Shown in pieces: positions 10,972 to 12,952 of a stretch of DNA of 64,000 bases. The stretch's first letter is position 1. Every line of letters begins with the position of its first letter. A model generated the notes under the pieces. It had not been told where the DNA came from, did not search any database, and saw nothing but the letters and a program-made list of their open reading frames with translations. This DNA comes from the human T2T-CHM13v2.0 reference genome, Homo sapiens: the NCBI RefSeq assembly GCF_009914755.1, contig NC_060940.1; one strand, 5' to 3'. The position numbers were made by a program, and so were the translations under genes.

Positions 10972-12952
10972 TTTTTTTCCAGATTAAAAAATGATACTTT
11001 ATTATAATTTTTAAAATTGCAGAACGTCAGGCTGAATATCATTAGACACATACACAAAACCACTCATCTCTAAAGTCATCTTCTATACCCTCTCAAAATT
11101 TGGCCAATGAATTATGCCTCAGGGAATTTTCCAGTTCAACCCCATACATAAATGGAAACACTAGCCTTTTGGTTTTGCCCACAGTTCCAAAGTGCTATTA
11201 CAGGTGGAGTATCTGCTGCAGGAGGTCATTCTTGCTGCTGTGGGTGTGAGTAAAATGTCTATCTGTATGCCTCTGGTCCTGCAGGCTTTGTTCTCTTTCT
11301 CCTTGTTTGGTCTCCTTCTACAGGGGTTACCTTACATACTGCAATCAAAAGACATCTTCTGCTCGGAATCAAAACAGATAGTGAGAGGTTCAAGTGAGAA
11401 GTAATGTTACATAGTAAGTTACTGAATTTACAATGAGAAATTGAACTCTGGGGTTACAACTCAAATATGATTTCAAGGTAAAGAAAATAATTACTTGGCT
11501 GGCTGGTGAAATGCTTAGTTCCTTCTAAAATCATAATTGCAATATGGACTTCTGCTTCATGCTGCATTCCAAGGCACCAATCAGGTAACCTACATCTCCC
11601 AAATGATCAACAGAGCGTTCCTTCCTATTTTACCCTCAGTGCTGAGAAATTACTCCTGAGCCCAGAAGTTGTTGTGTAGGTGACTTGGGTGACTTGGTGC
11701 CCAGGCAACAACTGCCACAGGCCCCACCTTGATGAACACCATTGATTTCTTTAAATATGATGATACTAAGATGGAGGCCCCTGCTCAGAGGAAGCAAGGA
11801 CGTAAAAGCCAGGACAGGCTGCGCTGAGGGTCACTACACTAACAGACCCAGACGACACGATGGAACGTGAATACTGAAGCCAACAATCTTCTGGAACTCT
11901 CTTTTCCAAAACTCATATGCTGTTTTTTCTAATTGGGAAATCAGGGACAGGGAAACATTCGCATAATTACCCACCAACATGTTCTTCTTAACAGAAATGA
12001 AGATTATTATTATTTTTTTTTTGAGACAGACTGTTGCTTTGTCGCCCAGGCTCGAGTTCAGTGGCGCAATCTCAGCTCACTGCAAGCTCCGCCTCCCGGG
12101 TTCACGCCATTCTCCTGCCTCAGCCTCCCGAGTAGCTGGGACTACAGGCGCCTGCCACCACGCCCGACTAATTTTTTGTATTTTTAGTAGAGACGGGGTT
12201 TCACCGTGTTAGCCAGGATGGTCTCGATCTCCTGAACTCGTGATCCGCCCTCCTCAGCCTCCCAAAGTGCTGGGATTACAGACATGAGCCATCGTGCCCG
12301 GCTCCACTTTGGTTTTTTCTAATCGGTTCAGGATCTCATTTACTTTCTTCTCCATTGTCACAATTTTTACATCCTTCTGCCTGTGAAAGCCTATCTGCCT
12401 CACATCCACGTCAGCTGTTTTCTTCAGGTTAGACCGTGGAGTATTTACCACATTAACGTTGTTCTTGCAGCCTTGAGTGCTATTGGCCTTCACAAGGTGG
12501 GCGCAGTCTGTCAGCACTTCCTTTGGAATGTCCTCTATATTCTCTCCCTTATGCAATTGAAGGTATACATGAGCCAAAGAGAGTCTGTCCGCACGAAACC
12601 AGATATATTCAGGCCAGCCATGCTTCATCAGATCTTCATGATGATTTATGGGTTAGTAGGAGAGATATAAAACTCAAGGGCCGGGCGCGGTGGCTCATGC
12701 CTGTAATCCCAGCACTTTGGGAGGCTGAGGTGGGCGGATCACGAGGTCAGGAGATTGAGACCATTCTGGCCAAAATGGTGAAACCCTGTCTCTATTTCAT
12801 ATTTATCCTTTCCCATGTAAATAGCGCAGGCAGATGAATTAACGCTGCTGCTGGTGAAGTAGAACACCATGATGCTGGCGGGGGTGCGGTGACTCCACCG
12901 TGGAGCAGCAGCGTTCAACTGTGGCGGTTGCCTGGTCCCCGGAACTCTCCTC
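10972..12952 (-). pseudogene. Processed pseudogene of CCDC25, interrupted by Alu sequences and partly deleted
   Basis: ATG at 12870 gives [25 protein letters not shown], then [14 protein letters not shown]...HLVKANS...EKTKVE (to 12303); AATAAA at 11003-10998 and a short poly(A) at 10972-10978; identity of 11010-12000 as 3' UTR is inferred. Confidence 0.88.
12003..12302 (-). mobile_element. AluY inside the CCDC25 retrocopy, no TSD seen
   Basis: AluY diagnostic positions; joins CCDC25 ...KTKVE directly to presumed 3' UTR. Confidence 0.85.

What the first reader, a model, noticed from the sequence alone, without database searches (positions are those of the whole stretch)
12640..12794. Fossil Alu-derived poison exon captured in the CCDC25 retrocopy
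Seen: a 155-nt insert splits codon N26 (…TATGAAA / insert / ATGAAGAT…) with no loss or duplication of CCDC25 sequence. It consists of an antisense Alu left arm (12679-12794) plus 39 nt of unique sequence, with no poly(A) or TSD. It starts exactly at TAGAGACAGGG, immediately after the TTTTTAG acceptor classically used in antisense-Alu exonisation. Read in frame it gives [18 protein letters not shown] and a TGA. Recall: this position is the CCDC25 exon 2/3 boundary. Inference: the reverse-transcribed mRNA was an Alu-exonised, NMD-type isoform, so the pseudogene records an ancestral germline splicing event.
Basis: partly seen in the sequence, partly recalled or inferred. Interest (0 to 1): 0.8.

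Follow-up and report, generated by a model that had tools for sequence, protein, structure and literature searches.

The report
Fossil Alu exon with inverted intron piece
A dead copy of the human CCDC25 messenger RNA carries, exactly at one exon junction, 155 extra bases made of half an Alu repeat plus a backwards piece of the intron that once sat there, probably recording a splicing accident in a gene variant that no longer exists.

Summary
A 155-nt block (12794-12640, minus strand) sits exactly between CCDC25 exons 2 and 3 in an intronless copy, with no base lost or gained. It is an antisense Alu left arm plus 39 unique nt, and it gives an in-frame TGA.

The 39 nt occur once elsewhere in the genome, inside CCDC25 intron 2 on chr8. 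But they lie there in reverse complement to the gene, with no Alu beside them and no AG/GT flanks. Simple exonisation of a resident intronic Alu is therefore not supported.

Three features still point to splicing from a lost intron-2 haplotype:
- The Alu boundary is the left-arm acceptor.
- The Alu/39-nt junction fits a standard insertion (10-bp duplication at TTTT|A).
- The other end abuts an xCAAGT donor-like motif at the edge of a 154-bp spacer bracketed by 22-nt inverted repeats (2 of 5258 control positions), the geometry of inverted-repeat-flanked microinversions.

Best model (about 0.45): a flipped spacer carrying a young Alu produced a stop-containing exon. A macaque protein model suggests the copy predates the human-macaque split.

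Also found: the copy and ATP5F1AP3 share one target-site duplication.

The parts
12640..12794 (-). The 155-nt block inserted exactly at the CCDC25 exon 2/3 junction of the retrocopy
   Evidence: The flanking exon alignments end at 12795 and begin at 12639.
12679..12794 (-). Alu left arm, antisense to the retrocopy (Alu positions 1 to about 117). It begins in copy-sense at TAGAGAC, right after the linker acceptor position.
   Evidence: Against a consensus of 14 Y/Sc-type copies it shows 3 of 93 non-CpG differences and keeps 5 of 11 CpGs.
12640..12678 (-). 39 nt identical in polarity to the C8 plus strand, i.e. the reverse complement of CCDC25 intron 2 nt 215-253
   Evidence: 38 of 40 aligned positions match C8:28042322-28042361, and this is the only other genomic match.
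12739..12741 (-). In-frame TGA created by the block
   Evidence: ORF 12739..12963, minus strand.
12795..12843 (-). CCDC25 exon 2 of the retrocopy
   Evidence: C8 28042623-28042575, 93.9%.
12598..12639 (-). CCDC25 exon 3 of the retrocopy
   Evidence: C8 28039829-28039788, 95.2%.
10972..12952 (-). Whole CCDC25 processed copy: 5'UTR, exons 1-7 (part), a later Alu, and the 3'UTR to the poly(A) site. It is not listed in the supplied gene table.
12010..12302 (-). Full-length sense Alu with A-tail that replaces about 600 nt of the copy (rest of exon 7, exon 8, start of exon 9). A later event.
   Evidence: 9 of 233 non-CpG differences. Macaque protein P0034 still has this coding part.
12953..12965 (-). 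13-A tail of the ATP5F1A copy, directly abutting the 5' end of the CCDC25 copy
12966..14817 (-). ATP5F1AP3 processed copy, head-to-tail upstream of the CCDC25 copy
   Evidence: 12 exon matches on C18, 83-98% identity; ATP-synt_ab_C; supplied gene table.
14818..14832 (-). 5' copy of the target-site duplication (AAAAATGCTTGAAAC in copy-sense), preceded by TTT. This is an L1 endonuclease-type site.
10963..10977 (-). 3' copy of the target-site duplication (9-nt core identical, 14 of 15 overall), directly after the CCDC25 3' end
   Evidence: The 9-mer occurs only at these two places in window 10901-15000.

Best explanation
The 155 nt were most likely a real cassette exon in the CCDC25 mRNA molecule that L1 reverse-transcribed, apparently before the human-macaque split. 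That mRNA came from an intron-2 haplotype that differs from today's reference.

In that haplotype (inferred), the 154-bp stretch of intron 2 bracketed by two 22-nt inverted repeats (C8:28042187-208 and 28042363-384) lay in the opposite orientation. It also carried a freshly inserted Y/Sc-type Alu at a TTTT|A site, with target-site duplication CTTGAGTTTT. The Alu was thereby antisense to CCDC25.

The Alu's T-rich linker and the first AG after it served as acceptor. The exon ran through the Alu left arm and its 5' end into 39 nt of flipped intron. It ended at a donor at the spacer/repeat-arm boundary, which reads ...ATCATC|ACAAGTAAC in CHM13.

The exon adds 18 codons and a TGA, so the isoform was non-productive and, by the usual rule, an NMD target.

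Shown:
- the exact exon-junction placement;
- the origin and reversed polarity of the 39 nt;
- the absence of the Alu from CHM13 intron 2 at that site;
- the inverted repeats.

Inferred: the flipped, Alu-bearing haplotype, the donor, and the splicing itself.
For: (1) Both outer junctions are exact exon ends, with no base lost or gained. The C1 retrocopy shows the plain junction.

(2) The Alu part starts exactly after the linker AG. In PMC2639721, more than 95% of left-arm acceptors lie in one 24-nt window (passages).

(3) The same gene has a model exon of the same architecture. Gorilla isoform X1 (P0001) carries ETGFHH...HHAQPK between exons 1 and 2. This maps to a human intron-1 antisense Alu, with acceptor ...TAGTAG| and donor CCAAAAG|GTAAGA 5 nt beyond the Alu 5' end.

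(4) In the Alu's own orientation the junction reads AAAACTCAAG|GGCCGGG, and the empty site in C8 reads GT|AAAACTCAAG|TG. This is a 10-bp duplication at a TTTT|A nick site. Only 5.2% of intron-2 positions (140 of 2685) and 3.7% of gene positions (1387 of 37541) would show this by chance.

(5) In the polarity of the exon, the bases after the 39 nt are ACAAGT. A CAAGT, TAAGT or TGAGT pentamer at +2..+6 occurs at 0.31-0.39% of positions (117 and 146 of 37601).

(6) The same boundary lies 2 nt from the inner edge of a 22-nt inverted repeat (18 of 22 complementary) whose partner lies 154 nt away and encloses the block. Only 2 of 5258 sampled positions in the gene have this. All 59 human-chimpanzee microinversions in PMC8755829 are flanked by inverted repeats, with the inner edge within -5 to +4 nt in all but two (passages).

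(7) The Alu was young when captured. It has 3 of 93 non-CpG differences from its family consensus, against 26 of 765 (3'UTR) to 49 of 1180 (all columns) lineage-specific changes in the copy itself.

(8) The parent gene has demonstrably changed since: a 248-nt 3'UTR block present in both retrocopies is missing from C8.
Against: - The predicted donor is not a donor in CHM13. The bases are AC, and the nearest GT is 4 nt further on. Using that GT would add ACAA, which the human copy lacks; judging from the HH residues, so does the macaque copy. One CpG transition would give GCAAGT, but that is an assumption.
- The model needs two differences from the reference (a flip and an Alu). Neither was seen in any sequence available here, and no other primate genome could be searched.
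- The repeat arms are imperfect. The DNA fold pairs them but is not unusually stable (z -0.69; 54 of 200 shuffles fold as well).
- Published inverted-repeat-flanked microinversions are 17-33 nt long. This spacer is 154 nt, or about 450 nt with the Alu.
- In avian hotspots, microinversions were not tied to stem-loops (PMC3123225).
- A stop-containing isoform should be depleted by NMD, making its capture less likely.
- The statistics in points 4-6 were chosen after looking, and points 5 and 6 concern the same site.
Confidence: 0.45

Rival explanations
1. Reverse-transcriptase template jumping. During the L1-mediated event, the strand with the sense of the copy was made by an RT. It left the CCDC25 template, copied an Alu RNA from the linker to its exact 5' end, jumped onto sense intron-2 RNA (nt 253 down to 215) and returned. 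No exon ever existed.
For: In copy-sense the block has the polarity of a cDNA: first of Alu RNA read to its first base, then of sense intron RNA. End-to-end jumping is how L1 chimeras are thought to form (PMC2104539 and bioRxiv 10.1101/2025.02.02.635956, passages). The locus itself may be such a chimera, with one target-site duplication around ATP5F1AP3 plus CCDC25. The Alu family was active at that time.
Against: - Departure and return would have to hit the exon 2|3 junction to the base.
- There is no microhomology at the exon 2/Alu joint.
- It needs RT copying of RNAs during second-strand synthesis. I found no precedent in the passages read.
- It leaves unexplained the acceptor position, the TTTT|A spacing and the inverted-repeat adjacency.
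Confidence: 0.15
2. A rearranged source allele of another kind. A single aberrant Alu insertion antisense to CCDC25, in which the RT jumped from the Alu RNA 5' end onto nascent intron-2 RNA (or folded back on the DNA). This made an inverted duplicate of intron sequence next to the Alu, which was then exonised.
For: It explains the splicing-type junctions, the reversed polarity and why the piece comes from the same intron. It needs one event rather than two. The Alu was young.
Against: It does not explain the 10-bp duplication and TTTT|A geometry or the inverted repeat at the boundary. It has the same missing-donor problem. No such allele has been seen.
Confidence: 0.15
3. Double trans-splicing. 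An antisense transcript across intron 2, from an allele with a gene-sense Alu at nt 253/254, paired with the pre-mRNA. It donated an exon-defined unit that was spliced between exons 2 and 3.
For: It accounts for the polarity, the splice-type boundaries and the standard Alu insertion geometry without any inversion. Trans-splicing has been proposed for some L1/mRNA chimeras (bioRxiv 10.1101/2025.02.02.635956, passages).
Against: - Two trans-splicing steps on one molecule, followed by capture of so rare an RNA by L1.
- No evidence here for an antisense transcript.
- The inverted repeat is left as coincidence.
- Same donor problem.
Confidence: 0.05
4. Later insertion. The copy was first a plain retrocopy, and the 155 nt were captured afterwards at a DNA break.
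For: The block has no poly(A) or target-site duplication, as in break-repair captures.
Against: - The break would have to fall exactly on the exon junction.
- The filler would have to come from the very intron removed there. The 39 nt have a single other genomic copy.
- Macaque protein P0034 reads KDKY-HH-EDL, where HH is encoded by the last bases of the block plus exon 3. The block end is therefore probably as old as the human-macaque ancestor.
Confidence: 0.03
5. One reading: exonisation of an antisense Alu that still resides in CCDC25 intron 2 next to the 39 nt.
For: The junction placement and Alu boundary.
Against: In CHM13 the 39 nt are reverse-complemented and have no adjacent Alu. The only gene-antisense Alu of intron 2 differs in subfamily-diagnostic stretches and in its flank.
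Confidence: 0.02

Closest known systems
Antisense-Alu left-arm cassette exons (Alu exonisation)
   Same: The Alu is antisense to the transcript. The exon starts after the T-rich linker AG, runs through the left arm, and adds a premature stop. Known class: 77 left-arm against 313 right-arm exons in PMC2639721.
   Different: The donor lies outside the Alu, in flanking sequence that is reverse-complemented relative to today's intron. The source Alu is absent from the reference gene.
CCDC25 intron-1 Alu exon (gorilla predicted isoform X1, P0001)
   Same: Same gene and same architecture: a left-arm acceptor, read-through of the Alu 5' end, and a donor in the unique flank.
   Different: It lies in intron 1, is in frame with no stop, and its Alu is present in the human gene in the expected orientation. 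It is a database model, not verified here.
Processed pseudogenes as records of splice variants
   Same: A retrocopy preserves a non-canonical isoform. The C1 copy of the same gene lacks exactly exon 4. The idea is in print: Shemesh et al. 2006, PNAS. This is recalled and was not retrieved by my searches.
   Different: Here the recorded exon cannot be produced from the present gene, so the copy would also record a lost intron structure.
L1 chimeric retrogenes formed by template switching (Buzdin/Gogvadze type)
   Same: Two mRNA copies are fused head-to-tail in one orientation, within one pair of direct repeats at an endonuclease-type site (features listed in PMC2104539).
   Different: Both parts are mRNAs, and the 5' part keeps a 13-A tail. 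A second insertion into that A-tail would look the same.
Microinversions flanked by inverted repeats
   Same: [quoted passage not shown] This is the geometry reported for all 59 cases in PMC8755829.
   Different: Only one boundary is visible. The two states are compared between a retrocopy and its parent, not between orthologues. The spacer is 154 nt against 17-33 nt.

Membership tests
Processed pseudogene (L1-mediated retrocopy) | Introns removed precisely at the parent's exon junctions | tested here: met
   Exons 1-7 abut in the window and map to separate C8 blocks. The 3'UTR is colinear.
Processed pseudogene (L1-mediated retrocopy) | 3' end at the mRNA poly(A) site with an A-tract | tested here: met
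   The copy ends at ...AATCTGGAA as in the parent, followed by A7 in total. The tail is very short.
Processed pseudogene (L1-mediated retrocopy) | Target-site duplication at a TT|AAAA-type site | tested here: met
   A 15-nt repeat (14 of 15, 9-nt perfect core) preceded by TTT. It encloses ATP5F1AP3 plus CCDC25 together.
Antisense-Alu cassette exon | Block bounded on both sides by the neighbouring constitutive exons, without loss or gain | tested here: met
Antisense-Alu cassette exon | Exon starts after an AG that follows the Alu's T-rich tract | tested here: inconclusive
   The boundary position matches. The AG itself would be intronic and is not preserved.
Antisense-Alu cassette exon | Exon ends before GT or GC in the source gene | tested here: not met
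   CHM13 reads ATCATC|ACAAGT in the exon's polarity, and the GT is 4 nt further.
Antisense-Alu cassette exon | The Alu and its flank are present in the parent intron in the transcript's orientation | tested here: not met
   The 39 nt are on the opposite strand and no Alu is adjacent. The resident Alus do not match.
L1 chimeric retrogene (template switch) | Parts directly joined in the same orientation | tested here: met
   The ATP5F1A copy with its A13 tail runs directly into the CCDC25 5'UTR, both on the minus strand.
L1 chimeric retrogene (template switch) | One pair of direct repeats around the whole composite and none around the parts | tested here: inconclusive
   One pair was found. But an insertion of the CCDC25 copy into the A-tail would leave an A-only duplication that cannot be seen.
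Inverted-repeat-flanked microinversion | Segment is the reverse complement of its counterpart | tested here: met
   38 of 40 aligned positions match on the opposite strand.
Inverted-repeat-flanked microinversion | Inverted repeats whose inner edges lie within a few nt of the inversion boundaries | tested here: inconclusive
   Met at the one visible boundary (2 nt). The other boundary is not recorded in the copy.
Inverted-repeat-flanked microinversion | Both orientations seen at orthologous loci | not testable with these tools
   Only one human genome is held, and it has no relatives here (header).

The most novel reading that the evidence does not exclude
The block records a natural double trans-splicing event. 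An antisense RNA from CCDC25 intron 2, carrying a then-new Alu, paired with the CCDC25 pre-mRNA. A 155-nt exon-defined unit from it was spliced between exons 2 and 3, and L1 then copied that hybrid mRNA into the germline. No DNA inversion would be needed.
Probability: 0.05. Interest if true: 0.85.

Novelty: new variant of a known kind. Interest (0 to 1): 0.45.

Why it matters
Retrocopies are already used as archives of old splice forms. If the favoured reading is right, this one also archives an intron structure that has vanished from the gene: a young Alu plus a small inversion between inverted repeats. It would be a dated example, apparently older than the human-macaque split, of how a fresh Alu insertion makes a stop-containing exon.

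It also gives a concrete, cheap test in primate genomes for a hairpin-flanked inversion in a nuclear intron.

It has no bearing on present CCDC25 function, because the exon cannot form from the reference allele.

Practical points:
- The CCDC25 copy is missing from the supplied gene table.
- A macaque 'CCDC25-like' protein model probably derives from this pseudogene.

Tried and rejected
1. The two Alus now in intron 2 as sources. The gene-sense one (intron nt 627-905) is 77.5% identical. The gene-antisense one (nt 1475-1765) is 85.7% identical, no better than unrelated Alus in the 60-kb region (best 87.8%, outside the gene). It differs in the subfamily-typical stretch, and its flank is unlike the 39 nt.

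2. The 39 nt as a repeat family. The whole-genome search with 525 nt around it found only itself and the window.

3. The 248-nt extra block in the copy's 3'UTR as a second templated insertion. Rejected: the C1 retrocopy has it at 94% identity. It is therefore a deletion in the parent, flanked by CATTT.

4. The sense Alu at 12010-12302 as part of the original jumping event. Its age is compatible (9 of 233 non-CpG differences). But macaque P0034 keeps the coding part it replaces, so it came later.

5. Twin priming. It gives a 5' inverted part, not an internal one (reasoning; passages).

6. A strong hairpin. The DNA fold pairs the arms but has z -0.69, which is neutral.

7. Literature.
- No paper was found on this pseudogene pair. 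One search found 5 papers holding the names and listed 3; none is about structure, judged from the listing only.
- None of the 10 papers listed contains CCDC25.
- Searches did not retrieve the recalled 2006 paper.

9. Not run: structure, complex and RNA-family tools, because nothing here depends on a fold.

10. Not possible: repeat annotation with a curated Alu library. The subfamily call rests on a crude consensus of 14 copies, chosen by one motif out of 69 full-length copies.
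Full report
**What is there**

The window is human chr16. On its minus strand lies an intronless copy of CCDC25 that the supplied gene table does not list.

BLAST of window 13000-11800 (minus) against 60 kb of G000:C8 maps the following:

| Part | Window coordinates |
|---|---|
| exon 1 | 12920-12843 |
| exon 2 | 12843-12795 |
| exon 3 | 12639-12598 |
| exon 4 | 12600-12547 |
| exon 5 | 12549-12471 |
| exon 6 | 12473-12367 |
| first part of exon 7 | 12370-12301 |

The 3'UTR follows at 12008-11506 and 11257-10977 and ends at the parent's poly(A) site.

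The translated part hits Pfam NFACT-R_1 (E 4.7e-17). Its homologues are named coiled-coil domain-containing protein 25.

**The block**

Between exon 2 and exon 3 lie 155 nt (12794-12640). The parent shows ...ATGAAA|GTAAGT and ...TTGCAG|ATGAAG at these exon ends. The block therefore sits on the junction to the base. A second retrocopy on C1 has the plain exon 2/exon 3 junction.

In copy-sense the block has two parts:
- An antisense Alu left arm, starting at TAGAGAC. This is the base after the linker AG (compare the full Alu at 12302-12010).
- 39 unique nt.

The frame then reads [18 protein letters not shown] and TGA.

The whole human genome could be searched. The 39 nt have exactly one other copy, at C8:28042322-28042361 (95% over 40 nt, E 1.5e-8). 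That place is CCDC25 intron 2, 215-253 nt downstream of the exon 2 donor. The piece therefore comes from the very intron that was spliced out at this junction, which cannot be chance.

However, the match is on the plus strand of C8, whereas all seven exon matches are on the minus strand (read directly). The piece is reverse-complemented relative to the gene.

There is no Alu next to it in CHM13, and it has no AG before or GT after. Intron 2 holds two Alus:
- One is gene-sense and old (77.5% identical to the block's Alu).
- One is gene-antisense, but of another subfamily type (85.7% identical) and with an unrelated flank.

The simple story, an intronic antisense Alu still in place that was exonised, is therefore not what the reference gene shows.

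**Why I still think it was an exon**

Only splicing explains two joints that fall on exon ends with no base lost or gained. Three more boundaries carry signals.

- **The Alu boundary.** It is the left-arm acceptor position. Left-arm exons are a known minority: 77 against 313 right-arm exons, with more than 95% of their acceptors in one 24-nt window (PMC2639721, passages).
- **The Alu 5' end / 39-nt joint.** It looks like an ordinary Alu insertion. In the Alu's orientation it reads AAAACTCAAG|GGCCGGG, and the empty site in C8 reads GT|AAAACTCAAG|TG. That is a 10-bp duplication at a TTTT|A nick site. Such geometry is found at 140 of 2685 intron-2 positions and 1387 of 37541 gene positions.
- **The other end of the 39 nt.** In the exon's polarity it is followed by ACAAGTAAC. 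This matches a donor at +3 to +6 and is one CpG transition from GCAAGT. The pentamer class occurs at 0.31-0.39% of positions.

The same gene also offers a control. The gorilla isoform X1 model has an Alu exon between exons 1 and 2. It maps to a human intron-1 antisense Alu, with acceptor ...TAGTAG| and donor CCAAAAG|GTAAGA just beyond the Alu's 5' end. That is the same architecture.

**Why the piece is backwards**

The donor-like boundary lies 2 nt from the inner edge of a 22-nt inverted repeat (18 of 22 complementary; C8:28042187-208 and 28042363-384). Its two arms enclose a 154-bp spacer, with the 39 nt at one extreme end. Among 5258 positions sampled across the gene, 2 have a comparable repeat so placed.

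This is the geometry reported for human-chimpanzee microinversions. All 59 are flanked by inverted repeats, with the inner edge within -5 to +4 nt of the boundary in all but two (PMC8755829, passages).

I therefore propose that the source haplotype carried this spacer in the other orientation, together with a young Alu. That paper's proposed mechanism is a break inside the segment, repaired using the flanking repeats. The Alu's own endonuclease cut lies inside the spacer, so one event could have done both. That last step is speculation.

**Support for a young Alu and a changing parent gene**

- The block's Alu differs from a consensus of 14 similar copies at 3 of 93 non-CpG sites.
- The copy's own lineage-specific change is about the same: 26 of 765 in the 3'UTR and 49 of 1180 overall.
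- A 248-nt 3'UTR block shared by both retrocopies (94% identical) is absent from C8. The parent has therefore changed since.

**Weak points**

- The donor is AC in CHM13. The nearest GT would add four bases that the copy lacks.
- Neither the flip nor the Alu is seen in any sequence I could reach.
- The repeat arms are imperfect, and the DNA fold is unremarkable (z -0.69).
- Known cases of this kind of inversion are much shorter.
- Stem-loops were not linked to microinversions in birds (PMC3123225).
- NMD should thin out such an mRNA.
- My control counts were designed after seeing the features.

**Rivals**

- **RT template jumping.** The block has cDNA polarity (Alu RNA read to its first base, then sense intron RNA). 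That is what a jumping reverse transcriptase makes, and the locus may itself be a jump product. But leaving and re-entering the CCDC25 template exactly at the junction, on the second strand, is very unlikely. None of the three boundary signals is explained.
- **An aberrant Alu insertion that copied nascent intron RNA.** This explains the polarity, but not the duplication geometry or the inverted repeat.
- **Double trans-splicing with an antisense RNA.** The data allow it, but it needs two rare steps.
- **A later break-repair capture.** This is contradicted by the junction placement and the intron origin. It is also contradicted by macaque protein P0034, described next.

**Age and neighbours**

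Macaque protein P0034 ('CCDC25-like') shares six derived residues with this copy. It reads KDKY-HH-EDL, where HH is encoded by the last bases of the block plus exon 3. The protein is most simply the orthologue of this copy, which would then predate the human-macaque split.

The chr16 and chr1 copies and the parent each carry similar numbers of private changes (49, 49 and 30 of 1180 columns).

The CCDC25 copy starts near the parent's transcript start, directly after the 13-A tail of ATP5F1AP3. The 9-mer GCTTGAAAC (14 of 15 over 15 nt, preceded by TTT) occurs only just upstream of ATP5F1AP3 and just after the CCDC25 3' end. ATP5F1AP3 is 83-98% identical to its parent exons, similar to the CCDC25 part.

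This fits a two-mRNA chimeric retrogene as described for L1 (PMC2104539). An insertion of the CCDC25 copy into the A-tail of an older ATP5F1AP3 would look the same, and I cannot exclude it.

**Verdict**

The thing is a new variant of known kinds (an Alu exon preserved in a retrocopy). Its unusual feature is a reverse-complemented intron piece that points to a lost haplotype. Primate genome comparison would settle it quickly. Interest is moderate.

Noticed in passing
window 10963-14832 (minus strand): ATP5F1AP3 and the CCDC25 copy lie head-to-tail inside one 15-nt target-site duplication (14 of 15) at a TTT|AAAAA site. This is either a two-mRNA chimeric retrogene made by a template jump, or a second insertion into the first copy's A-tail.
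   Followed up: partly
window 10972-12952: The CCDC25 processed copy is absent from the supplied RefSeq gene table for this window.
   Followed up: no
window 12010-12302: A full sense Alu with A-tail replaces about 600 nt of the copy (rest of exon 7, exon 8, first ~416 nt of exon 9). It has no target-site duplication. The macaque protein model keeps this coding part, so the event came later, on the human side.
   Followed up: partly
window 11258-11505; L025 about 2899-3145; C8 near 28012717: A 248-nt 3'UTR block is present in both CCDC25 retrocopies (94% identical) but missing from the present gene, where CATTT marks the joint. This is a deletion in the parent gene after the copies were made.
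   Followed up: yes
L025 (G000:C1:39586001-39592000) 1397-3436: The chr1 CCDC25 retrocopy joins exon 3 directly to exon 5. It lacks exactly the 54-nt exon 4, so it also records a non-canonical (exon-skipped) isoform. It is about the same age as the chr16 copy.
   Followed up: partly
G000:C8:28047227-28047346 (CCDC25 intron 1): An antisense Alu whose left arm matches the extra 40 residues of the gorilla CCDC25 isoform X1 model at 97.5%. The human sequence has the donor CCAAAAG|GTAAGA just beyond the Alu 5' end.
   Followed up: partly
protein P0034 (Macaca nemestrina 'CCDC25-like', 207 aa): This annotated protein shares six derived residues with the human chr16 pseudogene and bridges the 155-nt block. 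It is probably a gene model built on the orthologous pseudogene.
   Followed up: partly
window about 12921-12952 versus C8 about 28049961-28050015: The copy's 5'UTR lacks 24 nt that the present gene has, and the copy's 3'UTR has a private 11-nt deletion. These are small indels of unknown polarity.
   Followed up: no
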